54,002 nucleotides of DNA from a virus: positions 1-54,002 of the IMG/VR virus record IMGVR_UViG_3300012117_000002. The stretch is one strand, 5' to 3'. Shown here in pieces: positions 1 to 54,002 of the stretch. The translations under genes and the position numbers were made by a program. How positions within the stretch are numbered: the stretch's first letter is position 1; the number at the start of each line of letters is the position of its first letter. Below the pieces are notes generated by a model that saw only the letters and a program-made list of their open reading frames with translations, made no database searches and had not been told where the DNA came from.

Positions 1-59
1 ATTCCGCAGCTGGGGTTTTGTTATACTTCCATTTTCCATTCCTAAAACTCATATCAAAT
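1..59. repeat. 59-bp terminal direct repeat identical to 53944-54002 (circular-assembly overlap or short terminal redundancy)
   Basis: Bases 1-59 (attccgcagctggggttttgttatacttcc...ctcatatcaaat) recur exactly at 53944-54002. An ORF reads in frame across the junction. Confidence 0.95.
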
Positions 60-988: not shown

Positions 989-1141
989 TTAATTTATCTT
1001 AACGGTAATGGGCGGCATTATTTCCGGCTCCCTCTCCGGCCGCACACGGGCGGGATTAGTCCGCACAATGAATGGATTGAGTGCGCCGTCATTGATGACG
1101 TGGCAGTACTCCGGATCGATTTTCTTATTTTCTTGCTTCAA
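989..1141 (-). CDS. possible 50-aa protein (TTG start), below the ORF-track length cutoff
   Basis: GGAGGA lies 9 nt upstream of TTG at 1141. The ORF fills the gap between the flanking genes. Translation is MKQENKKIDPEYCHVINDGALNPFIVRTNPARVRPEREPEIMPPITVKIN. Confidence 0.35.
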   Translation of the reverse strand: MKQENKKIDPEYCHVINDGALNPFIVRTNPARVRPEREPEIMPPITVKIN

Positions 1142-1766
1142 AGTCACGGTTTCCTCCAATCACATTGCCCAAATCATCCATCTCGTCCCACAAATAGCGG
1201 CCTTTCCCACTGTTTCGCCACTGTCCCATGCCCCTCAGTTCTCCGTAATCAAGCCACTCCCTCACGGCATTGATATGTGCGTCACACAGGCACGAAATTG
1301 TAAAATCAATATAGGCACCCGCCGGAATGGTCTCGCTGTTTGCTAAGGCAATCCGTTCGCCCTGCGCTGTCTGCCCTCTCAACGGACGCTGGCAGTTTCC
1401 GATTTCTCCGACAAAAACAATTGGTATCATCCGCTCTTTTACGAAAATCAACCCATCAATTTCCTTTTTGTACGCTTTGATTTTCGACGAAGCTGAATTG
1501 GGCACCTTCCGTAGGCAGCCGCAGGCGTCCTTGAAAAATCCTTTCACCTGATAATCCCACATGATGGGATGTCCCTCTTTGTTGCGCGGGAAGATGGTCA
1601 TTGATTTTTCAATCACTTCATCAACTCCGACCGCTGCGACTTCTTCGGCCCGTGTTGGTGCGTCAGGTGCGTTGGATGCGATAAATGTGCTGTGAATCTC
1701 CGGATCACTGCTTGCCGTTCCTAAAATTTCCTCCGCAAATGTTACTCTTACTTTTAATTCCTTCAT
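1125..1766 (-). CDS. hypothetical early protein (213 aa) with RAMP-like motifs; function unknown
   Basis: ATG at 1766 is preceded by GAGGAGA. The longer track ORF (to 1883) runs into the repeat tract. Motifs are GHPIMWDYQVKGFFKDA and a C-terminal glycine-rich loop GMGQWRNSGKGRY. Confidence 0.55.
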   Translation of the reverse strand: MKELKVRVTFAEEILGTASSDPEIHSTFIASNAPDAPTRAEEVAAVGVDEVIEKSMTIFPRNKEGHPIMWDYQVKGFFKDACGCLRKVPNSASSKIKAYKKEIDGLIFVKERMIPIVFVGEIGNCQRPLRGQTAQGERIALANSETIPAGAYIDFTISCLCDAHINAVREWLDYGELRGMGQWRNSGKGRYLWDEMDDLGNVIGGNRDFEARK

Positions 1767-1815
1767 TTCTGATCTCCTCTTCTTTGTTGATATTTTAGTT
1801 TTTGAATCCTGTGCT

Positions 1816-2500
1816 GTGCCTTTGCGCTGCTGCACTGTGCATGGCCGTTCCTTTGCTGTGACCTGCCTGGCCTGGCTGTGCAATTCCTCGGCTATTCAAG
1901 ACTATCCACAACCACGCCCAGCGATGCTCTGCCTATACCCTGCTACCCACAGCCTCGCCACTCCTTTGCAACACTTTGCCATGCTCCGCCGTGCCCTTGC
2001 CATACTCCGCCATGTTATCCTGCGCTATGCCTTTGCAACGCGCTGCGTTTCCTTTACAATGCCATCCCTCGCCCTGCCTTGCTCTGCCGTTGCCGTGCAA
2101 GTCGTCGCAATTCCTTCGCTGCTCATCACCATGCCGAGCTACTCCCTTGCTATGCCGTGCCCCGCTGATCAGCGCCATTGCCCTGCCTAGCCATGCCTCG
2201 CTACTCCTTTGCCAATCGGCGGTTAGCACTGCCTTTGCCATTCGTAGTCCCGCCTTGCTCTGCCAACCATCGCTTTGCTTTGCCATTGCATCTCATTGCG
2301 TTGCCATTCCTTTGCTATGCCCAACTCAGCCCTTCGATGCCAATCCTTTGCTATGATCAACGCTTCTGTGCCCTGCCATCCCTTTGCTTGGCGATACCAC
2401 GCTTCGCTCTGCCGTCGCCCGGCCGTGCATTGCCATTCCTTTGCAAATCACCGTCTTGCCCTCCGGCATCCGGCAAATCCAAGCCGGTGCGCTCGTAAAA
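1816..2500 (-). repeat. degenerate G/A-rich (on transcribed strand) repeat tract with no RBS-supported ORF; candidate structured or sponge ncRNA
   Basis: CCTTTGC (GCAAAGG on minus) occurs exactly at 1819, 1850, 1963, 2030, 2206, 2232, 2309, 2345, 2381 and 2438. Three copies are spaced exactly 36 bp apart. Eight mutually overlapping track ORFs in five frames reflect the composition skew. Confidence 0.8.
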
Positions 2501-2647
2501 ATACTTCCGTGATATCCGTCCGGCCACAATGTAAAATCCTTTCGCTGTCAATTCTTCATTGAACTGCTTAATGATCTTGTAAGCCGTGTTTCTTGACACA
2601 TTCATCAACTCTGCGACCTCTGTCGCCCGCATGATTGGTGCTGGCAT
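2357..2647 (-). CDS. excisionase-family/MerR-like HTH DNA-binding protein
   Basis: The N-terminal sequence ATEVAELMNVSRNTAYKIIKQF...GRISRKYFYERTGL is typical of excisionase-type HTH proteins. The last ~40 codons run into the repeat tract and look low-complexity. Confidence 0.7.
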   Translation of the reverse strand: MPAPIMRATEVAELMNVSRNTAYKIIKQFNEELTAKGFYIVAGRISRKYFYERTGLDLPDAGGQDGDLQRNGNARPGDGRAKRGIAKQRDGRAQKR

Positions 2648-2845: not shown

Positions 2846-3595
2846 TTAGGCAATAAACTTGTTGATAAAATATTGCTGGCCGTATCCTGTTACCTTGGTT
2901 GTCTTGCTAATAGTTGTATGCCCATCGGAATGGGTGATTGCAGTTTCCTTAACTTCGAAAAGTTTCATCTCCATACTGCGTTGCGTGGGGGCATTGTAGT
3001 CAGTTCCCTTCCGACGGATCAGATAGCCATTATTTCTTAAATATTCAAATAACCGCTTCTCGCCGGTATCTACACCGTTTTGTTTTAGGATTTTCGCCAG
3101 TTCGCCAATCAAGATCGATGTCTTGCTTGTGGCTACCGCATCGGCAAATAATGCTTTGGGCTTCATTTCGCCAATTAGTTTGTCTTTGCCGGCAATAATG
3201 TTTTGAGCGACAACAAGCGCATTTGCTACAATCTGTTCTGGTGTCAAGTTTTCCTGATTTGCAATATACCCACCATTATTTCTAATTGATGGCAGTACTT
3301 CGCTCGTCACCCAATGCTTGAATCGTTTCGCCGACTCTAGTTTGCTGCTAAGAATAAGGGCATACATTCCGGACTCGTTTATAATTACCGCTTTGCTTTT
3401 GTAATTCGAACCCGTACCCTGTAATAGGGTGGTGGTTTTATCATCATCATCTACGTGCTGACTTATTGCGTTTTCTGTTTTCGCATATCCCAATGCTTTT
3501 GCGATGTCCCTTCCCACAAAATATGTTTCGTTATTCAGTTGTACTGTTCGTATTTGCCCGAACTCTTCGTTGCTAAATATCTGCAATTCCTTCAT
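2846..3595 (-). CDS. phage antirepressor (Bro-N N-terminal domain plus KilAC/ANT-type C-terminal domain)
   Basis: The sequence MKELQIFSNEEFGQIRTV...FVGRDIAKALGY...INESGMYALILSS...AKRFKHWVTSEVLPSIR is the Bro-N signature. It is the first gene of the early operon. Confidence 0.85.
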   Translation of the reverse strand: MKELQIFSNEEFGQIRTVQLNNETYFVGRDIAKALGYAKTENAISQHVDDDDKTTTLLQGTGSNYKSKAVIINESGMYALILSSKLESAKRFKHWVTSEVLPSIRNNGGYIANQENLTPEQIVANALVVAQNIIAGKDKLIGEMKPKALFADAVATSKTSILIGELAKILKQNGVDTGEKRLFEYLRNNGYLIRRKGTDYNAPTQRSMEMKLFEVKETAITHSDGHTTISKTTKVTGYGQQYFINKFIA

Positions 3596-3638
3596 TAACT
3601 ACCTCACTTTCTTTATCAATATCTTGTCCGCTATAGAC

Positions 3639-3667
3639 ATTATATCACCCATGTTGGTCTGTGTCAA
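3639..3667 (-). promoter_or_regulatory. early (lytic) promoter with consensus sigma-A elements
   Basis: The minus strand reads TTGACA (3667-3662), a 17-nt spacer, then TATAAT (3644-3639). The antirepressor RBS lies about 40 nt downstream. Confidence 0.65.
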
Positions 3668-3690
3668 ACATTATTTTTAAAATATTGTTG

Positions 3691-3719
3691 TTTACAGACA
3701 TTCAATTTTGTGTTATTAT
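3691..3719 (+). promoter_or_regulatory. repressor/integrase promoter, divergent from the early promoter
   Basis: TTTACA (3691-3696), 17-nt spacer, TATTAT (3714-3719), with TGT just upstream (extended -10). AAGGAGG and ATG 3739 follow. Confidence 0.55.
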
Positions 3720-3738
3720 ATTATTAAGGAGGAATGCT

Positions 3739-4140
3739 ATGGTAAATAGGATAAAAAAATTGAGAAATGAAAATGATATGACGCAGGAAGAATTCTCTAA
3801 ACGAATCAACATAAGTCGTTCAAACCTTGCAGGTATAGAGACAGGAAAAGTCGGAATCACGGATAGAATCATAAACGATATCTGCCGAGAATTCAATATA
3901 AACGACATTTGGTTGCGGACCGGCAAGGGCAATATGAAAAAAGATCTTTCCATAGAAGAAGAAACATATGGACGATTCGGGAAGATAATGGAAGTGGGAA
4001 GTCCCATAAAGAAAAACATGGCTACAATGCTATTAAAGATAGTAGAAACACTTCCAGACGAACAGTGGGAAAGCATATATGAGGAATTTAAGGCCTGCAT
4101 CGACAGGGTAGAAAGGGCAGAAAAAGAGAGCGAAGACTAA
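3739..4140 (+). CDS. CI-like XRE-family HTH repressor
   Basis: ATG 3739 follows AAGGAGG. The HTH is LRNENDMTQEEFSKRINISRSNLAGIETGK. The gene is divergent from the antirepressor and co-oriented with int. Confidence 0.8.
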   Translation: MVNRIKKLRNENDMTQEEFSKRINISRSNLAGIETGKVGITDRIINDICREFNINDIWLRTGKGNMKKDLSIEEETYGRFGKIMEVGSPIKKNMATMLLKIVETLPDEQWESIYEEFKACIDRVERAEKESED

Positions 4141-10457: not shown

Positions 10458-11267
10458 TCATCTCTGCACGCCGTGTATAGCCTGATGTTTTTTTACTATT
10501 CCTTCAAAAATCTGCCGCAATTGCTTATCTTTGCTGATAACATCCATCTTTGTCAGAGTTTTTGCTTCGGTTTTAGTAGCTCCTCGCCTCACCATATCTT
10601 TTCTGCGACGGATTAAGCGGCTGCCCAGCAGGATGCCGGAGCTTTCCTCCAGCTCTTTGTATATCATTCCCCGGAACTTGACCGGGCTTAAATGATATGT
10701 CGCTACCATCGCATTGATTGCGCCGTTCATATCAGCGCTCCAGTGGTCAATGCTCGGGTTTGCAAACACTTTTAGTGTGGTTTCCAGCTTCGTCGCTGAT
10801 TCCTGCGCTGTCTGCTCAATGACGGCAAGGCGCCGATCTTGGATTTCCAACAGTTGCCCCTGGGCTTCTAATTTCCGCTCAAGCTCAACGGTGTTCTGTG
10901 CCATTTGGAGAATCATTTCGGCTTGCGTAAGCTGAGGGAGGGTGTAGCCTCCTTGTTTGCGGATAGATGGCAGCACTTCGGACGTAACCCAACGTTTGAA
11001 TTTCTTGGCGCTTGGAAGCTCGCTCATAATGATTAGGGCATACATGCCAGATTCGTTGATAAGAGTCGTTTGCTGTTCGCCTCCTCTTGAAGGGATACCT
11101 CGTTTCAGGGTATCCTCTGCATCCACATGCCGGATTACTGCGTCATAGGGCTTTGCATACCCCAGAGCGGTCGCGATATCCCTACCAACGAACCAGCCTT
11201 CTCCATCAATATCCACTGTCCTGACTTCTCCGAATTCTGGATTGTTAAAAATCTGTAATTCATTCAT
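10458..11267 (-). CDS. second Bro-N-domain antirepressor-like protein with a different C-terminal domain
   Basis: The sequence MNELQIFNNPEFGEVRTV...FVGRDIATALGY...INESGMYALIIMS...AKKFKRWVTSEVLPSIR closely parallels 2846-3595 over roughly the first 110 aa. Confidence 0.8.
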   Translation of the reverse strand: MNELQIFNNPEFGEVRTVDIDGEGWFVGRDIATALGYAKPYDAVIRHVDAEDTLKRGIPSRGGEQQTTLINESGMYALIIMSELPSAKKFKRWVTSEVLPSIRKQGGYTLPQLTQAEMILQMAQNTVELERKLEAQGQLLEIQDRRLAVIEQTAQESATKLETTLKVFANPSIDHWSADMNGAINAMVATYHLSPVKFRGMIYKELEESSGILLGSRLIRRRKDMVRRGATKTEAKTLTKMDVISKDKQLRQIFEGIVKKHQAIHGVQR

Positions 11268-11385
11268 AATAAAAAATCTCCTCTCAAATTTCGTGCTTGA
11301 AGGAGATCTCTGCTCATGCTATAATATTCATGAGAGAAATCTCGCCCAGAACACTTGCCAAACTTTCCACGGTGGAGCGAGTGTT

Positions 11386-11568
11386 CTATTTTTTTGCCCA
11401 TTTTAAAACTTCTTCTTTTTCAATCCTCCAATCTCTTCCTAATTTGAATCCTTGCAATTCACCAGATTTTAATGCACGTTTAACAGTCATCTCGCTAATT
11501 TGCAAAAATTCTGCTAATTGTTTTGGCGTTATAATTTCTGGAAGATTTTCTAAACCCAAACATATCAC
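11386..11568 (-). CDS. excisionase-family HTH DNA-binding protein (start uncertain)
   Basis: ITPKQLAEFLQISEMTVKRALKSGELQGFKLGRDWRI. The SD GGAGG fits TTG 11559 better than GTG 11568. Confidence 0.65.
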   Translation of the reverse strand: MICLGLENLPEIITPKQLAEFLQISEMTVKRALKSGELQGFKLGRDWRIEKEEVLKWAKK

Positions 11569-11665
11569 CTCCTGTAATTTATTATAACTAACTATAACAT
11601 ACTATTACAAACATGTCAATATCTTTTTGGGAATGATTTTCGAGTTGCAATTTTCCACAATCTAC

Positions 11666-11702
11666 CATATAATAATTTCATCAAAAGAGAAAGGGGGATA
11701 TA
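11666..11702 (+). promoter_or_regulatory. promoter/leader cassette (TATAAT plus RBS), duplicated at 12753-12787
   Basis: catataataatttcatcaaaagagaaagggggatata here versus catataataatctcatcaaaagaaaaggggatata at the second site. Confidence 0.5.
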
Positions 11703-11707
11703 AACAT

Positions 11708-12679
11708 TTGAAAATAATTAAAGCCTTTCTAATAATTAGTATTTTATCGATTTTATTTGCCGGGATTATGCAGATTTCATTCTTGTCAGAAAACGCAAAG
11801 TTTTTACTATTTATATCTATAATTATTCTGTGGATGATAAAAAAGAATTTTCTTAAAATTAGAATTTTATTTTTAAAAATCGGAATGAAAATTCAAAAGA
11901 CAAAAATGTTTTTTTCGAAGATAGGACTGCGTTTAATTAATGTGAAATTTCGTTTTAGCAACATAAGGCTAGGGAAATCGGATGCAACCCCTAGATATTC
12001 AAGTATGTCCGATTCTGCTCCCGTAGTTGCACCGTTAGACTCACTGACAGACGGCTACGCATTCGAGGCTTACATAGCCGATCTACTCTTGAAAAATGGC
12101 TATAGCAAGGCATCGCCAACACAAAAATCCGGAGATTTTGGTGCTGATGTAATAGCTGAAAAAGATGGTGTGAGATATGCTATTCAATGCAAGTTATATA
12201 GTCAACCGGTAGGAAATAAGGCTGTAGGGGAAATTCTTGCTGGAATGCAATATTACAACTGTCACGTGGGGGTTGTGGCGACAAATAACACTTTCACAAA
12301 AGCTGCAATCGAAATAGCCCAAAAATCGAACGTATTGCTGTGGGATAGGAGCGTGCTATTAAAAATGGCTCCAATACCAAGTCCAGAGCATTTCAATTCA
12401 TATCAATCGTCTTACCGCCTTAGACACAATCTCCAGTCAGAGGAATGTAGTGATAATGAATTGTATTTACATGCGGTGGAATGTGCCTTGGAAAAAGGAA
12501 AGGTATCTATTGGATCACTGCAAAGGGAATTGGGTATAAAATTTAATTGTGCATTTGCCATTGTGGAAAAAATGGAGAAAAATGGAATCATTGATTGTTC
12601 CGACGAATCAACTTACCGTCACACATTAATATCAAACGAAAAATGGATAGAGATAAAGTCCGGGCAAAACATTTCATAA
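11708..12679 (+). CDS. membrane-anchored Mrr-type (PD-(D/E)xK) restriction endonuclease-like protein with C-terminal FtsK-gamma-like winged helix
   Basis: TTG 11708 follows AAGGGGGA. There are two N-terminal hydrophobic helices. The Mrr_cat pattern is FEAYIADLLLKNGY...GDFGADVIAE...YAIQCKLY. The C-terminus is VSIGSLQRELGIKFNCAFAIVEKMEKNGII. Confidence 0.7.
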   Translation: MKIIKAFLIISILSILFAGIMQISFLSENAKFLLFISIIILWMIKKNFLKIRILFLKIGMKIQKTKMFFSKIGLRLINVKFRFSNIRLGKSDATPRYSSMSDSAPVVAPLDSLTDGYAFEAYIADLLLKNGYSKASPTQKSGDFGADVIAEKDGVRYAIQCKLYSQPVGNKAVGEILAGMQYYNCHVGVVATNNTFTKAAIEIAQKSNVLLWDRSVLLKMAPIPSPEHFNSYQSSYRLRHNLQSEECSDNELYLHAVECALEKGKVSIGSLQRELGIKFNCAFAIVEKMEKNGIIDCSDESTYRHTLISNEKWIEIKSGQNIS

Positions 12680-27787: not shown

Positions 27788-28152
27788 GCTTCTTCTATAT
27801 CCTTGTCAATATCGCTCAAATCGCTTATTTCCATGATTTTATTGACAATCCTTGCGGTCGTTCCGGCAGTAAATTTCCTGTTAATAAAATCCGCAACGGT
27901 ATCGCACTTTGCTTTTTCCAAAAAATCCGCATCCTTAAGATTTGGATCTATTACATGATTTTCAATAACCAAGCAATTTAACTTATTAACATCAATATCG
28001 TTATCTTTTTTTTTGCTCCGTATACGATATCCTTGCAACTGCTTCTCGGTTAATGGTTCAACCACAAACGAACCAAGTTGTTTGCTAATATATATATCTT
28101 TTTTGATTTCTGACACGTCCGGCAATAACAATAAATCCTGTAATCTACTCAT
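27775..28152 (-). CDS. tail assembly chaperone (XkdN-like)
   Basis: 125 aa, located between the tube and tape measure genes. Confidence 0.75.
   Translation of the reverse strand: MSRLQDLLLLPDVSEIKKDIYISKQLGSFVVEPLTEKQLQGYRIRSKKKDNDIDVNKLNCLVIENHVIDPNLKDADFLEKAKCDTVADFINRKFTAGTTARIVNKIMEISDLSDIDKDIEEAKNL
27781..27787 (-). promoter_or_regulatory. A_AAA_AAC slippery heptamer for -1 programmed frameshifting
   Basis: The zero frame reads gcA AAA AAC tta TAG. The site is two codons before the chaperone stop. Confidence 0.6.
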
Positions 28153-28164
28153 AAAAAATCCTCC

Positions 28165-28623
28165 TTAAACTGGTGTATTGAAATATTCCAGACCGTCTAC
28201 TTCGCTGAACGTAAAATCAAAACTTCCTTCCAACGATTCACTGTCCACGTCAAGCTGAACGATATCGCCACCATTAATACTTACCTGCCCCAACTTTATA
28301 GTTTGCCGTCCTGCGGAACTGGCCGGATCGTCGTTGGTGGCGGTAATTGTGAAAAACGGCATAACTCCCGTCTTCGCCCCTCTGATAATCATTGCGGTAA
28401 AAACCGGCGACAGCCAGTGATAGGTGCATGATCCCATTCCTGTCCATCCTGCATACTTGTGTCTTGTTGCTCTGTCCCCGAGCACATTGTACTCGCTTTT
28501 ATTAAATTCTATAGAACCGGTTAAAGTCTTAATCTCGCCCAATGTTACAACGTTTCCGCTGATAACTGCGGTAACTGTTCCTTCTCTTCCATGGACGGGA
28601 ACTGCATCAAATGCTAATGCCAT
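28165..28623 (-). CDS. tail tube protein (XkdM-like)
   Basis: 152 aa, directly downstream of the sheath gene. Confidence 0.8.
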   Translation of the reverse strand: MALAFDAVPVHGREGTVTAVISGNVVTLGEIKTLTGSIEFNKSEYNVLGDRATRHKYAGWTGMGSCTYHWLSPVFTAMIIRGAKTGVMPFFTITATNDDPASSAGRQTIKLGQVSINGGDIVQLDVDSESLEGSFDFTFSEVDGLEYFNTPV

Positions 28624-28638
28624 CTATAGTCCTCCTTT

Positions 28639-29964
28639 CTATATTACGTACACAAGAGCATACAGAGTGTCCATTGCGGCGATTGGATTAAGTCTATTAA
28701 TCGTAAGCATGACAGACGTTTTCTCTTTCCCTGCTGATATCTCAATATCGTCTGCACCCTCAAAATTATCTATGGCTCCAATTCTTTGTAGCTCGTTAAG
28801 ATATGTCAAAACATCTGACTTGAAAACGTTACGTCCATTTTCGTTGTTTTGGATTTTGTCTCTGTAGCTTCGTTCCCAAGTATCGGTAAGCCTTGTTCCG
28901 ACCTCATCGAGCACGCGAATGACTTGATTTAATCTGAAATCTTTTGAAAGCTTGCTTGTAAATGTATGCAGGCTATTTATGTCTTTTTCTGGTACGATTT
29001 GTCCGTCAATATTCGTCCTGAGTACAAACATCCCGTGCTGTAGGGCTTCTTCGTATTCGGAATTGGTGCGTGTATTTAAAATTCGTGTTGCACCTGCAAA
29101 CGCTTGTGAACCTGCCGATTCAGTCACGGATGCCCCGGCGGTAATTCCAGCAACCCAAGCAGTAGCCTCTTCGGCAGTTACCTCGACGTTGCCCATCATT
29201 ACACCGCAATCGGAATTGATAACCCCGTGATAATCAGCTGCGTCATAATTTGCAACAACAACCTGGACATATTTGCCTTCCGTGTCGCGCATTTCTTCCG
29301 CAAACTTAGCAAACTGCGCGGCGAAAGTATCATTATCCCGTGTTAATGCCATTGTCTGCCAACGCGCCTTGCGTGCCAATGCCAGGTATGCCGGGTAAGC
29401 CGTTGCCGGTGTTACTGTGCCGTTCGTGCCGCCGGTTAGAGTAATGCCGGCATTTATAGCCAACGCGCCGAATCCGCTGAATTCCACATAATCGTTGTTT
29501 ACAAGTTCCTGCACCGTGGAAGCTGTTTGTGCGTCCCGACTTACGCCGTCAACGTAGGTTGTGACCGTGAATGGGCCATCGGATTCGGTTATAGCCACGG
29601 TAATCATGTTACCCTTCGTACCGGCATATTTTGCCTTTGCTGTAAGACTACCTTGCGTTGCCGTTGCTCTTACGCCGCCGCTGTCGAGCCTGTAAAATAG
29701 CCCGAGATAGCAATTTGATAACATCAGATTCGGGAGTTTCGCCTCTTCATCAAATGCCGTCATTCCGATTTTTGCAAGACTCGTTCCGTCTGTCATATCA
29801 GTGCTGTAGACGCTAATTAGTTCCCCTTCCGGGCCCCAATTCATAGGGAACGCCATTGTTCCGATTCCTCTATCCCCAACCTGCATAGTTGGGGCTGAAA
29901 CGGCATTGAAATTTATGTATGCACCGGGCCTGACCTTGTTTTGGCTGATCCACCGTCCACCCAT
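28639..29964 (-). CDS. contractile tail sheath protein (XkdK-like)
   Basis: 441 aa. The N-terminus is GRWISQNKVRPGAYINF. Confidence 0.9.
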   Translation of the reverse strand: MGGRWISQNKVRPGAYINFNAVSAPTMQVGDRGIGTMAFPMNWGPEGELISVYSTDMTDGTSLAKIGMTAFDEEAKLPNLMLSNCYLGLFYRLDSGGVRATATQGSLTAKAKYAGTKGNMITVAITESDGPFTVTTYVDGVSRDAQTASTVQELVNNDYVEFSGFGALAINAGITLTGGTNGTVTPATAYPAYLALARKARWQTMALTRDNDTFAAQFAKFAEEMRDTEGKYVQVVVANYDAADYHGVINSDCGVMMGNVEVTAEEATAWVAGITAGASVTESAGSQAFAGATRILNTRTNSEYEEALQHGMFVLRTNIDGQIVPEKDINSLHTFTSKLSKDFRLNQVIRVLDEVGTRLTDTWERSYRDKIQNNENGRNVFKSDVLTYLNELQRIGAIDNFEGADDIEISAGKEKTSVMLTINRLNPIAAMDTLYALVYVI

Positions 29965-50561: not shown

Positions 50562-50845
50562 TACAGATAAGATTTACCAAACTCTTTCCGGAAGTCGTCC
50601 CGGCTGCCATAATGCGCTTCGTAATAGGCTTGCGCTTGCCGTTTAAACCTCTCGTCCAACTCTTGATCCATGTGGACACTGTAAGGCGTCATATTGTGCC
50701 AATCCGGCCTCAATGGTACGATGAATCCGTACCGCGTCGAAAACCTCCTATTGGAGCCGTTGAATACGTGGTGCAATTCAACGTGGCAACTGCCAGTTAC
50801 CATACAATGTTCCAGGTCGTCCGTCAGGACACTAAATAGTTTCAT
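50561..50845 (-). CDS. HNH-like Cys/His-motif protein
   Basis: ATG 50845 follows GGAGGA. Motif CMVTGSCHVELHHVFNGSNRR...PLRPDWHN. Confidence 0.45.
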   Translation of the reverse strand: MKLFSVLTDDLEHCMVTGSCHVELHHVFNGSNRRFSTRYGFIVPLRPDWHNMTPYSVHMDQELDERFKRQAQAYYEAHYGSRDDFRKEFGKSYL

Positions 50846-51413
50846 GTTTCTTCCTCCAACTCTGATCATACATATCCATCATGCGTCTATATTCGTCCGG
50901 CGGCAGCGTGTCAATTCCCTGTTCTCTACAATCAGCAACCAGCCCTTCAATCAAGCGGCTCATTTCCTTAGTATCATAGGTGCTGGAACCACGTAGCATC
51001 TTGTAGGTCCGGTATGTCATTCCATCCACTCCGGTATTAACTTCCGTGGTGGGTTTGATGTGATAGGTTTCTGCCTCTAACGCTCTATTTTCGCCGTCAT
51101 CGGTGTCTGGCAGTATGAGGTAGACAAGTTTGCCGCCTATCTCTTCTAATTGCCCGTAGCGCCGTAATAGGATGTTGTGCATGCATGGGTTGGATATCTT
51201 TAGTTTGTCTGCCAGCTTGGTAAGTAGTTGCCAATAATATGAATTAGCGTTTAAGCTTCTCTTTCCTCTTGATTTCTTAGCAACAATTGTGAGCATGCAA
51301 TCCCTAATTTCATCAATAGAACCAGATACATCGTTATCAAATTCGAATGTTATTTGCATTTTCCCGCTATCCCAATTACGCGCTACTCCCTTTAAAACCC
51401 CATTACCCTCCAT
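50832..51413 (-). CDS. NinB/Orf-like recombination-associated protein ('putative HNHc nuclease' N-terminal type)
   Basis: KRSLNANSYYWQLLTKLADKL resembles the RS.DQN..LW motif of NinB-like proteins. Confidence 0.45.
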   Translation of the reverse strand: MEGNGVLKGVARNWDSGKMQITFEFDNDVSGSIDEIRDCMLTIVAKKSRGKRSLNANSYYWQLLTKLADKLKISNPCMHNILLRRYGQLEEIGGKLVYLILPDTDDGENRALEAETYHIKPTTEVNTGVDGMTYRTYKMLRGSSTYDTKEMSRLIEGLVADCREQGIDTLPPDEYRRMMDMYDQSWRKKHETI

Positions 51414-52011
51414 AATCAATTAACTTTCCTTCGTCTTCAAATTTGCTATCATGCATGAACCCCCACATAAAACCACCGGCTGTTTTGCGTTTCCCATTGC
51501 AACAACCGCTAATATTTTGGTGGGAAACTCCAGTATTACGTTCTGCTTCCAAAGCTGATGCGAAGTTTGCAACAAAGTTTTTGGTTTTTGTATATTGCGC
51601 GACTGCCTTACTATGACTCAATCCAATTTGCCTAATTCGTTCCATGTGTTCCTGATTTCCCTTGTTCCATGCGCTCATCTTTTGTTTGGATTTTTCTGTA
51701 TGGACGACTCCAAAACCTCCGCCATTTCCTCCTGATGAAATGTTATAGCATTTTCCGATTTCTCGGTACTTAGCGATTAGAAATCGTTCCATTGCATATG
51801 CTTCGTCTCCCGATATTCCGGCTTCCAATACCTCGTGCTTTATATTGTCCCATCCATATTTCTTTATAGCTGCATAAAATTCTTCGTTGCAGTTATAGCG
51901 ACCACCATTCTGCCACCTCTTGTTAACATTTTGACTGGTCACTCCGACATACACCCATCCATTTGGTGTAATATGCATATACACACTGTACCGATTGTTA
52001 TTCTTATCCAT
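51403..52011 (-). mobile_element. free-standing GIY-YIG homing endonuclease gene
   Basis: GIY-YIG motif YSVYMHITPNGWVYVGVT, NUMOD3-like HTEKSKQKMS, and C-terminal NTGVSHQNISGCCNGKRKTAGGFMW. Confidence 0.8.
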
Positions 52012-52045: not shown

Positions 52046-52648
52046 TCACTTTACTTTACCACCCCGTTTCAGTGATCTTAAACTCCATACCCCGAACCCT
52101 GTTTCTGTCGGAAAGCGCCCCGCATCCAAGCACAGTGACAGGTATATCAATCGCTCAACGTAGTATTCAATAAAAGCCGGATCATAACTTATTTCATAAA
52201 GAGAAGTCCGCTTGGGGTCAATCTCCCGGTAAAAATTGTTGTAATCTTTATCTTCCAGTCCGTAGGCTACTATATAAGCATTACGGATACCCGCGGCATA
52301 CATCTGAACACATACTTGTTCCCGGTACTTCTTTGACACTTTGAAACCATTATAAAATCGGTAAGTTTTAACCTCATAGATGCAGTCACCGGTATCGCCG
52401 TCCAGGTTCACCCGCAGGCGGCCCCGGATGATCTGGCGGTCCTTTTGCATGTTCCAAATGCCCAGACTATCCAATATCTGATGTTCGTAGGCGGTCCCGG
52501 CCATCATGGCCTCATTGCAAAAATCCACTTTATAGAGTCCGGCCTTTTCCAGATACCATTTTTCAAAACTCTTAGTTTCCCAGTTTCCGACCACATATCC
52601 CACATCAGAAGCCCCTATGTAATATGACCGGTCATGATCGGCTATCAT
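52046..52648 (-). CDS. YqaJ/lambda-Exo-like recombination exonuclease
   Basis: YIGASDVGYVVG...AGTAYEHQIL...DGDTGDCIYEVKT (PD-(D/E)xK). Confidence 0.8.
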   Translation of the reverse strand: MIADHDRSYYIGASDVGYVVGNWETKSFEKWYLEKAGLYKVDFCNEAMMAGTAYEHQILDSLGIWNMQKDRQIIRGRLRVNLDGDTGDCIYEVKTYRFYNGFKVSKKYREQVCVQMYAAGIRNAYIVAYGLEDKDYNNFYREIDPKRTSLYEISYDPAFIEYYVERLIYLSLCLDAGRFPTETGFGVWSLRSLKRGGKVK

Positions 52649-53923: not shown

Positions 53924-54002
53924 TTACTTCAATTCCCCGGCCGATTCCGCAGCTGGGGTTTTGTTATACTTCCATTTTCCATTCCTAAAACTCATATCAA
54001 AT
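53924..54002 (-). CDS. C-terminal part of the wrap-around ORF listed at 1-208
   Basis: The frame is continuous with 1-208 through the repeat and ends at TAA 53926-53924. Confidence 0.55.
   Translation of the reverse strand, partial: FDMSFRNGKWKYNKTPAAESAGELK
53944..54002. repeat. second copy of the 59-bp terminal repeat
   Basis: Identical to bases 1-59. Confidence 0.95.

What the first reader, a model, noticed from the sequence alone, without database searches (positions are those of the whole stretch)
1816..2500. A ~650-nt G/A-rich degenerate repeat tract with 10 exact GCAAAGG copies inside the early operon: candidate sponge or structured ncRNA
What the sequence shows: about 590 nt separate the HTH gene (stop 2357) from the next RBS-supported start (1766). 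No ORF there has a Shine-Dalgarno sequence. Yet the ORF track lists eight mutually overlapping ORFs of 67-126 codons in five frames. This is explained by strong strand skew. The plus strand is A-poor and C-rich, so the transcribed minus strand is G/A-rich and T-poor, and stop codons are rare. The heptamer CCTTTGC (GCAAAGG on the RNA) occurs exactly 10 times, at 1819, 1850, 1963, 2030, 2206, 2232, 2309, 2345, 2381 and 2438. Near copies occur as CCCTTGC at 1994 and 2144. Three units sit exactly 36 bp apart with an extended core TGCCAWYCCTTTGCT. On the RNA the extended motif is GCAAAGG(A/G)AUGGCA.

Established knowledge: CsrA/RsmA-type regulators bind GGA motifs (SELEX consensus RUACARGGAUGU). 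Their sRNA antagonists (CsrB, RsmY/Z) are arrays of such motifs. In Firmicutes CsrA is antagonised by the protein FliW, and to my knowledge no sponge RNA is established there. The motif is also a Shine-Dalgarno mimic (AAAGGAG).

Inference, three options: (i) a phage-encoded protein-sponge or SD-decoy RNA expressed early; (ii) an R-loop-prone G-rich transcript; (iii) a decayed or low-complexity coding region. A tract of this size without coding support is highly atypical in an otherwise tightly packed genome.
Basis: partly seen in the sequence, partly recalled or inferred. Interest (0 to 1): 0.72.

Follow-up and report, generated by a model that had tools for sequence, protein, structure and literature searches.

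The report
Phage guide-RNA repeat array beside a Cas7-like gene
The G/A-rich tract is a non-coding array of about 126-136 five-base repeats next to a small Cas7-like (RAMP) gene, which matches the recently described phage "VIPR" RNA-guided DNA-recognition systems and not a CsrA or ribosome sponge.

Summary
All 10 CCTTTGC copies sit at the stated coordinates, against 0.5 expected by chance within the tract.

The heptamer is only the visible part of a larger pattern. On the minus strand, 2458..1806 is a continuous array of about 126 units (105 pentamers, 20 hexamers). The consensus is R-G-(C/A)-A-N, with G at position 2 in 95% of units. The period is 5.16 nt and there is no codon periodicity. 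GCAAAGG is a recurring punctuation: a hexamer (xGC-AAA) followed by a GGx unit, about every sixth unit.

The gene immediately downstream (1125-1766, 213 aa, no Pfam or PHROG match) folds as a CRISPR RAMP/Cas7-type protein and has a G-loop. It aligns over its full length with the Vipr protein of phage SUSP1.

A period-5.1-5.2 tract adjoins this gene in 69 of 80 viral loci and 69 of 80 bacterial-genome loci, upstream or downstream, whatever the other neighbours are.

This matches VIPR systems (two 2026 bioRxiv preprints), in which Vipr protomers coat pentamer-repeat vrRNAs and read DNA through the variable dinucleotides.

Differences from the characterised type: a degenerate unit, a non-integer period, no 3' tail and no conserved accessory gene. 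Ten gapped-seed scans found no target.

Verdict: new member of a just-described kind. The sponge reading is not supported.

The parts
1806..2458 (-). Candidate vrRNA array. About 126 head-to-tail units (105 pentamers, 20 hexamers, 1 tetramer). Consensus: pos1 G/A, pos2 G (120/126), pos3 C (88) or A (19), pos4 A-biased, pos5 any. Period 5.16 nt. The periodicity already begins at about 2485, inside the 3' end of the HTH ORF.
   Evidence: Segmentation. GC-anchored profile. Autocorrelation and Fourier analysis. Unique in the window. No Rfam match.
2438..2444 (-). First of the 10 exact GCAAAGG punctuation motifs. On the + strand CCTTTGC starts at 1819, 1850, 1963, 2030, 2206, 2232, 2309, 2345, 2381 and 2438. 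Each is a hexamer unit xGC-AAA followed by a GGA, GGC or GGG unit.
   Evidence: GGA/GGG follows a hexamer in 10/22 cases against 3/110 after a pentamer (Fisher p = 4e-7).
1125..1766 (-). vipr-like gene, 213 aa. RAMP/Cas7-type fold with a C-terminal G-loop, G179-M-G181-Q-W183-R184-N-S-G187-K-G189. The SD sequence AGAGGAG is at 1780-1774.
   Evidence: AlphaFold2 pLDDT 78, pTM 0.73. Foldseek against PDB: all top 50 hits are CRISPR RAMPs. BFVD best hit is annotated 'Cas system-associated RAMP superfamily protein'. Invariant residues. hhalign against the SUSP1 Vipr clade gives P = 2e-5 over the full length.
2357..2647 (-). Small HTH gene (phrog_989). The homologous part is aa 1-63 (2459-2647). The C-terminal ~30 codons read into the array by chance. 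It is not a conserved partner of the array.
3639..3667 (-). Perfect sigma-70 consensus promoter (TTGACA-17-TATAAT with TG), divergent from the cI-like repressor gene. It is the likely source of the transcript that carries ant, the HTH gene, the array and vipr.
   Evidence: No minus-strand promoter-like or terminator-like site lies between it and the array.

Best explanation
The tract is the guide-RNA (vrRNA-type) repeat array of a phage VIPR-like system, and the 213-aa gene just downstream is its Vipr (minimal RAMP/Cas7-like) protein.

Shown here:
- An array of about 126-136 units with one near-invariant G per unit.
- A RAMP fold with a G-loop in the adjacent protein.
- Distant but full-length profile similarity to the founding Vipr of phage SUSP1.
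- Tight co-occurrence of gene and array across about 160 loci, whatever the other neighbours are.

Taken from the two VIPR preprints:
- One Vipr protomer binds each pentamer.
- It sequesters the conserved G-G-Y bases (G2 stacks on the G-loop Trp) and presents the two variable bases.
- Those bases pair with double-stranded DNA, skipping every third target base.
- The complex silences genes of competing phages or prophages.

Inferred for this window:
- The array is transcribed early from the consensus promoter at 3667-3639, as part of the ant-HTH-array-vipr operon.
- The RNA stays single-stranded (purine-rich, little predicted structure) and is coated by the 213-aa protein.
- W183 and R184 hold the invariant G and the C/A that follows it.
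- Positions 4-5 of each unit carry the targeting information.
- GCAAAGG, the hexamer-plus-GGx punctuation found about every six units, sets register or marks processing or nucleation points.
For: Array anatomy and periodicity:
- Period 5.161 nt with spectral power 32, against 0.2 at exactly 5.000. No 3-nt periodicity.

The protein:
- The Foldseek top 50 are all Csm3, Cas7, Csf2, Cmr4 or Cas7-11.
- A 61%-identical BFVD entry is named a RAMP superfamily protein.
- The GhGxxxxxGxG loop and the W-R pair are invariant.
- They align with G-V-G-D177-W178-R179 of SUSP1 Vipr, residues that the cryo-EM preprint says read G1, G2 and Y3.

Association of array and gene:
- 69 of 80 IMG/VR loci carry the tract directly upstream.
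- 69 of 80 genome loci carry it adjacent: 53 downstream, 11 upstream, 5 both.
- Controls: 0 of 80 in the gene body and 0 of 63 far upstream.
- A 28%-identical homologue in Hydrogenobaculum phage 1 also has a C-poor tract of period about 5.2 right after the gene.

Evolution of the array:
- Arrays differ by large indels between phages whose Vipr is 96-99% identical.
- Position 2 changes least. In three of the four clades positions 4 and 5 are among the fastest-changing.

Literature:
- VIPR definition and variants NNNGG, YNNNG and NNNNG.
- The SUSP1 locus was re-read here.
Against: [quoted passage not shown] Five seeds came from this window and five from relatives; eight scans were in IMG/VR and two in metagenomes. 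Local searches also found nothing.
- The unit is more degenerate than GGY/NN: position 1 is G in only 51% of units, position 3 is C or A, and position 4 is 54% A.
- The period is 5.16, not 5.0.
- There are no 3' tails or pseudoknots between guides, and no hammerhead ribozymes.
- No conserved vap gene is present.
- Sequence similarity to SUSP1 Vipr is weak (hhalign probability 53-64%).
- In the clade of this window's closest relatives, position 3 changed about as often as position 4, so the position-specific pattern is only modest support.
- Expression, processing and RNP formation are untested.
Confidence: 0.75

Rival explanations
1. The array RNA is bound by the RAMP-like protein but is not a DNA-targeting guide. 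It could be a scaffold or autoregulatory leader that the protein coats to control its own operon. It could also be a decoy that titrates the Vipr proteins or guides of rival phages.
For: No targets were found with the published code. Position 4 is A-biased and the unit is degenerate. The array is very long and has no tails. In this window it sits in the 5' leader of vipr.
Against: In 53 of 80 genome loci the array lies downstream of the gene, which does not fit a leader or attenuator role. The fast, cassette-like turnover of array content among close relatives is what is expected of targeting information.
Confidence: 0.1
2. A DNA-level element: a phased protein-binding or curved region such as iterons, an origin or an operator array. 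Two units of 5.16 bp make 10.3 bp, which is one helical turn.
For: 31 nt equals six units and also three turns of B-DNA. The tract is GC-rich relative to its flanks.
Against: The purine strand is the sense strand of the RAMP-like gene wherever the orientation was examined: in the viral loci and in the two downstream-array genome loci that were read. That points to an RNA or single-strand role. Odd and even multiples of 5.16 are equally strong, so the basic period is 5.16 and not 10.3. The partner gene has an RNA-binding RAMP fold.
Confidence: 0.05
3. One reading: an early phage RNA that sponges CsrA-type regulators or 30S subunits through GGA or SD-like motifs.
For: AAAGGA and AAAGGAG resemble SD and CsrA sites, and the motif is enriched.
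Against: The motif is explained as array punctuation. It is absent from many relatives that keep the array. No hairpin presentation is indicated. The array co-varies in position with the RAMP gene.
Confidence: 0.03
4. A low-complexity or decaying protein-coding region.
For: Long ORFs are open in several frames.
Against: There is no 3-nt periodicity. Indels among near-identical phages are not frame-preserving. The 5.16-nt period cannot be coding. The open frames follow from the low T content.
Confidence: 0.01

Closest known systems
VIPR (Viral Interference Programmable Repeat) systems, type II of Escherichia phage SUSP1 and the Pseudomonas fulva prophage (bioRxiv 10.64898/2026.04.26.720920 and 10.64898/2026.04.26.720927)
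   Same: Phage-encoded. A single small RAMP protein of about 20 kDa with a G-loop W-R pair. An adjacent strand-specific array of pentanucleotide repeats, with a conserved G-rich part alternating with variable bases. No CRISPR repeats and no cas genes.
   Different: Here the unit is R-G-(C/A)-A-N rather than G-G-Y-N-N. One continuous tract holds about 126-136 units, rather than separate vrRNAs of 9-16 repeats that each have a 3' tail or pseudoknot. A hexamer followed by a GGx unit recurs about every six units, which gives a period of 5.16 nt. No conserved vap gene is present. G-loop Asp177 is Gln and His17 is Thr. Hosts are gut Clostridia and Coriobacteriia. No target could be found with the 1-nt-skip code.
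Class 1 CRISPR backbone (Cas7/Csm3/Cmr4 filaments on crRNA)
   Same: The same protein fold (best structural matches). One protomer per short RNA segment, with periodic base flipping by a thumb.
   Different: Six-nt segments of a contiguous spacer rather than a genomically encoded 5-nt repeat code. No CRISPR repeats, Cas6, Cas5, large subunit or adaptation genes are present here.
TRAP and the trp leader (11 G/UAG triplets with 2-3-nt spacers)
   Same: An RNA whose signal is a short conserved triplet repeated every 5-6 nt, with each triplet read by one subunit of an oligomer.
   Different: TRAP is a closed 11-mer ring with an unrelated fold that works by attenuation. The array here is ten times longer and is paired with a RAMP protein.
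CsrB/RsmZ-type sponge RNAs
   Same: A multi-copy short motif containing GGA in a non-coding RNA.
   Different: Sponge motifs sit in hairpin loops at irregular spacing. Here the motif is a phase-locked part of a 5.16-nt lattice with little predicted structure.

Membership tests
VIPR system | Vipr protein: a minimal RAMP (RRM core, glycine-rich loop, thumb) | tested here: met
   AlphaFold2 model. Foldseek against PDB: the top 50 hits are all CRISPR RAMPs, best 6xn3_F Csm3 at E = 6e-6. BFVD homologue annotated as a RAMP superfamily protein. G-loop G179-x-G181-x5-G187-x-G189 is invariant.
VIPR system | Sequence homology to a founding Vipr (SUSP1) | tested here: inconclusive
   Profile-profile alignment is colinear over 178-181 of 195 columns, P = 2e-5 to 7e-5, probability 53-64%. 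The family HMM ranks SUSP1 Vipr first of 199 SUSP1 ORFs, but at E = 0.038. The G-loop motif GxG(D/Q)WR...G(R/K)(F/Y) is shared.
VIPR system | An adjacent array of tandem pentanucleotide repeats with conserved GGY (or the related NNNGG, YNNNG or NNNNG) alternating with variable NN | tested here: met
   About 126-136 units. G at position 2 in 92-95% of units, C or A at position 3, position 5 unconstrained. An array is adjacent in 69/80 and 69/80 related loci. It is met in a degenerate form, with period 5.16 rather than 5.0.
VIPR system | Conserved positions evolve slowly and NN positions are hypervariable | tested here: inconclusive
   Substitution rates across four clades: position 2 is lowest in two clades (0.022, 0.025) and near-lowest in the other two (0.040 vs 0.037; 0.058 vs 0.051). 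Positions 4/5 are highest overall (up to 0.11). The contrast is modest and position 1 or 3 also varies. Turnover by indels is large.
VIPR system | An invariant structured 3' tail or pseudoknot capping each vrRNA (type II), or ribozymes between vrRNAs (some type I and V) | tested here: not met
   No non-repeat spacers or tails inside the array. No Rfam hammerhead or other family. Fold z-scores are -0.9 and -2.0. The preprint does not require this feature for all types.
VIPR system | A vap accessory gene next to vipr | tested here: not met
   Neighbour ORFs of 161 loci were clustered. No family besides vipr is found in more than 24 loci. The window's HTH family is present in only 4 loci. The preprint also reports stand-alone vipr genes.
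VIPR system | Encoded by a phage or prophage | tested here: met
   The window carries an integrase, a cI-like repressor, an antirepressor, a Sak SSAP, portal, terminase, tail sheath and endolysin. A 59-nt terminal overlap indicates a circular assembly.
VIPR system | Non-contiguous targeting of DNA by the NN bases with a 1-nt skip | tested here: inconclusive
   Ten exact seeds of 8-10 units in the NNx pattern gave only chance-level hits, none of which extended. Exact-match scans are insensitive, and the rule for hexamer units is unknown.
VIPR system | vrRNA expressed, processed and co-purifying with Vipr as a helical RNP | not testable with these tools
   This needs RNA-seq, pull-down or cryo-EM.
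CsrA-antagonist sponge RNA | Multiple GGA motifs presented in hairpin loops, irregularly spaced, independent of any RAMP gene | tested here: not met
   The GGA units are phase-locked after hexamers. There is no significant structure. The motif is dispensable in relatives.

The most novel reading that the evidence does not exclude
This clade, widespread in prophages of gut Clostridia and Coriobacteriia, may be a distinct VIPR architecture. Its arrays are one long continuous tract (300-1400 nt) built on a ~31-nt super-unit of five pentamers plus one hexamer followed by GGx. One extra nucleotide about every six protomers matches the six-subunit turn reported for the Vipr-vrRNA filament. Such an array might be read as very long filaments or as six-unit mini-guides, possibly with a recognition code other than the published 1-nt skip. 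That would explain why no target was found.
Probability: 0.3. Interest if true: 0.75.

Novelty: new member of a known kind. Interest (0 to 1): 0.55.

Why it matters
VIPR is a months-old class of RNA-guided DNA recognition, proposed as the ancestor of the CRISPR RAMPs. This locus extends it to temperate phages of dominant gut anaerobes.

The protein family has at least 1,987 clusters at 50% identity and is currently unannotated: no Pfam, PHROG or Rfam entry. The 300-1400-nt "gene-less" tracts are easily mistaken for junk, spurious ORFs or sponge RNAs.

A simple spectral test (period 5.1-5.2 nt next to the RAMP-like gene) finds them reliably. The regular hexamer/GGx punctuation and the failure of the published code to find targets are concrete, testable questions about how guides are delimited and read in this clade.

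Tried and rejected
- Rfam at gathering threshold over the whole window, and at E <= 10 over the region: nothing relevant.
- Tandem Repeats Finder sees only a 21/11-nt fragment.
- Pfam, PHROGs and PDB sequence searches of the 213-aa protein: no hits.
- blastn against GenBank phages matched only the antirepressor gene.
- RNA folding gave no convincing structure.
- Target hunting in local sequences: gapped-seed searches at skip 0-3 with shuffled controls gave only low-complexity chance hits. The apparent excess at skip 1 came from loci that had been fetched with the seed itself.
- Target hunting in public collections: eight IMG/VR scans and two metagenome scans with 8-10-unit NNx seeds gave 0-56 hits each, and none extended into flanking units.
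- The HTH gene as a conserved partner (vap): rejected, present in 4 of 161 loci. No other conserved neighbour exists.
- BLASTP of the gene after vipr against SUSP1 vap1: no similarity.
- Coding, CsrA-sponge and pure DNA-iteron readings were considered and rejected, as set out under the rival explanations.

Full report
**1. The observation**

The ten CCTTTGC copies are at the stated + strand coordinates and make up 10 of the 16 copies in the window. The two CCCTTGC near-copies are at 1994 and 2144. The three 36-bp-spaced extended units are at 2297, 2333 and 2369.

Enrichment is real. Dinucleotide-preserving shuffles of the tract itself give 0.54 +/- 0.72 copies, with a maximum of 4 in 2000. GC is 0.56-0.59 against about 0.40-0.45 in the flanks, with strong C>G and T>A skew on the + strand. 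Many ORFs overlap there in several frames.

**2.

On the transcribed minus strand the tract is a lattice.
- Autocorrelation peaks fall at lags 5, 10/11, 15/16, 21, 26, 31, 36, 41 and onward, and stay at 0.40-0.44 beyond lag 250.
- Lags 3, 6 and 9 are at or below background.
- The Fourier maximum is at 5.161 nt (power 32). Power at exactly 5.000 is 0.2.
- It is the only such tract in the 54-kb window.

Dynamic-programming segmentation gives 136 units over 2500..1796, of which 114 are pentamers and 22 hexamers. Within 2458..1806 there are 126 units, with G at position 2 in 120 of them and C (88) or A (19) at position 3. Position 1 is G in 51% and A in 25% of units, position 4 is A in 54%, and position 5 is unconstrained. 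A profile anchored only on GC dinucleotides, which carries no bias from the segmentation scoring, agrees.

Hexamers recur regularly. The runs of pentamers between them are 3-9 long, mean 5.2, which is not the spread expected of random slips. The unit after a hexamer starts with GG in 20 of 22 cases. It is GGA or GGG in 10 of 22 cases, against 3 of 110 after a pentamer (Fisher p = 4e-7). Across 64 related arrays the figures are 378/809 against 284/3904.

GCAAAGG is this punctuation: xGC-AAA followed by GGx. Shuffling the order of units still gives 4.8 +/- 1.5 copies, against 10 observed (p about 0.0015).

**3. Not coding, not a known RNA, little structure**

- There is no 3-nt periodicity.
- Six IMG/VR phages whose downstream protein is 96-99% identical carry arrays that differ by large indels and rearranged blocks. 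Only the last ~60 nt before the start codon are conserved.
- The HTH protein is 63-67 aa in relatives and 96 aa here, because a stop codon is missing. The extra ~30 codons are array sequence.
- Rfam gives nothing.
- Folding z-scores are -0.89 and -1.95.

**4. The neighbouring gene is the key**

ORF 1125-1766 (minus strand, 213 aa, SD AGAGGAG 7 nt upstream) has no Pfam, PHROG or PDB sequence hit. It does have thousands of homologues, forming 1,987 clusters at 50% identity.

An AlphaFold2 model (pLDDT 78, pTM 0.73) matches only CRISPR RAMPs among the top 50 PDB hits: Csm3, type VII Cas7, Csf2, Cmr4 and Cas7-11. The best is 6xn3_F at E = 6e-6. In BFVD the best hit, at 61% identity, is deposited as "Cas system-associated RAMP superfamily protein". 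Weaker hits include archaeal viruses.

The invariant C-terminal motif G179-M-G181-Q-W183-R184-N-S-G187-K-G189 has the form of a RAMP glycine-rich loop.

**5. The array travels with this gene**

In the 80 IMG/VR loci found with the protein (66-99% identity), 69 carry a period-5 tract directly upstream.
- This holds in clades that lack GCAAAGG altogether and have 42-45% GC.
- It holds whatever lies further upstream: an HTH gene, an antirepressor, a DnaC-like gene, a Cro-like gene or a divergent gene.
- One locus without the tract (L059) serves as a contrast.

In 80 loci from bacterial genomes and MAGs (53-74% identity), 69 have a tract of period 5.1-5.2 adjacent.
- 53 have it immediately downstream of the gene, 11 upstream and 5 on both sides.
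- None have it in the gene body (0/80) or far upstream (0/63).
- In the two downstream-array loci that were read, the purine-rich strand is the sense strand of the gene.
- The hosts are Lachnospiraceae, Oscillospiraceae, Ruminococcaceae, Faecalibacterium, Eggerthella, Olsenella and Atopobiaceae.

A 28%-identical homologue in Hydrogenobaculum phage 1 is followed by a 670-nt tract with 7.5% C. That tract has peaks at 5.2 nt and at lag 31 and no codon periodicity.

No other gene family is conserved next to the gene; the largest is found in 24 of 161 loci. The window's HTH family is found in 4.

**6. Literature**

A full-text search led to two 2026 bioRxiv preprints from one group: 10.64898/2026.04.26.720920 and 10.64898/2026.04.26.720927. 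They describe VIPR systems as follows.
- They are mostly phage-encoded.
- They consist of a ~20-kDa minimal RAMP (Vipr), often an accessory vap gene, and vrRNAs.
- A vrRNA is made of 9-16 YNNGG repeats, with conserved GGY alternating with hypervariable NN, plus a 3' tail.
- Seven types are reported, with variant consensus (NNNGG, YNNNG, NNNNG).
- Array layouts vary: staggered arrays, ribozyme-interspersed arrays or a single vrRNA.
- One protomer binds each repeat. G1 is read by H17 and D177, G2 is held between the thumb Arg and W178, and Y3 sits in a pocket with R179.
- The NN bases pair with dsDNA while every third target base is skipped, forming an R-loop triplex that represses competing phages.

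I re-read the SUSP1 locus: vipr at 28474-29061, vap1 at 28031-28471, and GGT-NN repeats in both flanking gaps.

**7. Link to the founding Vipr**

- hhalign of the shallow family alignment against SUSP1 Vipr is colinear over the full length (E = 0.019).
- A 113-sequence family alignment against a 115-sequence SUSP1-clade alignment (built) gives 178-181 aligned columns, P = 2e-5 to 7e-5 and probability 53-64%.
- The family HMM ranks SUSP1 Vipr first among 199 SUSP1 ORFs, at E = 0.038.
- The aligned G-loops are G-V-G-D-W-R in SUSP1 and G-M-G-Q-W-R here.
- The stacking Trp and the Arg are kept, which fits the near-invariant G at position 2.
- The residues that read G1 differ (Asp to Gln, His to Thr), which fits the relaxed position 1. 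That last step is inference.

**8. Context**

The window is a temperate myovirus-like phage genome. It carries:
- an integrase, a cI-like repressor, a Bro-N/KilAC antirepressor and a Sak SSAP;
- a RecE-like exonuclease, a homing endonuclease and a NinB-like mediator;
- an SPP1-type portal, a large terminase, a tail sheath and an endolysin with choline-binding repeats;
- a 59-nt terminal overlap, typical of a circular assembly.

A perfect sigma-70 consensus promoter at 3667-3639 on the minus strand faces the ant-HTH-array-vipr operon. No minus-strand promoter-like or terminator-like site lies between it and the array. Early co-transcription is the simplest reading, and it is inferred.

**9. Tests that failed**

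Among relatives, position 2 changes least or nearly least (0.022 and 0.025 in the two clades where it is clearly lowest), and positions 4/5 change most overall (up to 0.11). The contrast is modest. In the window's own clade position 3 changed about as much as position 4.

No natural target was found.
- Local gapped-seed searches at skips 0-3 with shuffled controls gave only low-complexity chance hits.
- Eight IMG/VR scans and two metagenome scans with exact NNx seeds of 8-10 units gave chance-level hits, and none extended. Five seeds came from this window and five from relatives.
- Exact seeds are insensitive, pentamer-only runs are short (at most 12 units), and how a hexamer maps onto a target is unknown. 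The result is therefore inconclusive, not negative.

**10. Verdict**

The tract is best explained as the vrRNA-type array of a VIPR-like system, and ORF 1125-1766 as its Vipr. The sponge, R-loop and decayed-coding readings are not needed.

Differences from the characterised type II:
- a degenerate unit, R-G-M-A-N;
- a continuous array of about 130 units with no tails;
- a 5.16-nt period produced by a hexamer plus GGx about every six units;
- no conserved vap gene.

One extra nucleotide per ~6 units matches both the six-subunit turn of the binary Vipr filament and three turns of B-DNA. Whether either coincidence means anything is open.

I could not check whether this clade is one of the preprint's seven types, because its figures and data tables are not held. 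I therefore file it as a new member of a known, very recent kind, and I leave open that it is a distinct architectural variant.

Noticed in passing
window 2357-2647 (-): The HTH ORF is 96 aa here but 63-67 aa in relatives L001, L002 and L004. The window lacks their stop codon, so the last ~30 codons are translated array sequence. This is probably a fortuitous C-terminal extension.
   Followed up: yes
window 1-59 and 53944-54002: The last 59 bases repeat the first 59 exactly, which is typical of a circular assembly. The window is a complete, circularly permuted phage genome of about 53.9 kb. The minus-strand early operon runs off the left end and continues at the right end (Sak, RecE-like and others).
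   Followed up: partly
window 3639-3667 (-) and 3661-4140 (+): A perfect TTGACA-17-TATAAT promoter with an extended -10 TG faces the early operon, back to back with the cI-like repressor gene. This looks like a classical lysis/lysogeny switch region.
   Followed up: no
L066, about 30-360 nt after the vipr stop (also other loci of the 67% clade): A cluster of (T/G/C)(A/G)CAAGCCA-type direct repeats (TTGACAAGCCA, TCGCAAGCCA) in a ~700-nt stretch with no ORFs. These look like iterons and may be an origin or operator array. They are unrelated to the pentamer array.
   Followed up: no
L002, L005, L008, L049, L053, L068, L078: just 5' of the array or of the HTH gene: A conserved element, TTACTCGGCATG(G/C)CAGTGCCTGTA(T/C)..., which contains the palindrome GGCATGCC in some loci. 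It sits where the early promoter/operator should be and is shared by phages whose Vipr is only 67% identical.
   Followed up: no
window 51403-52011 (-): A homing-endonuclease-like ORF (PHROG 314 and others, GIY-YIG/HNH) lies between the RecE-like exonuclease (52046-52648) and the NinB-like mediator (50832-51419) in the recombination module.
   Followed up: no
window 10458-12679: The cargo-like region between the integrase and the lysis genes holds an Mrr-cat restriction endonuclease fused to an FtsK-gamma domain (11627-12679, +) and a second Bro-N protein (10458-11267, -).
   Followed up: no
L265 (Hydrogenobaculum phage 1, KP282676) 3030-3700: A 670-nt tract with 7.5% C follows the distant RAMP homologue. 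It carries period-5.2 and lag-31 signals. The small CDS annotated inside it (3276-3446) is probably spurious.
   Followed up: partly
L234 (-1450..-50), L207, L225, L241 and others: Some related loci carry much longer arrays, up to about 1.4 kb, and five loci have arrays on both sides of the gene.
   Followed up: no
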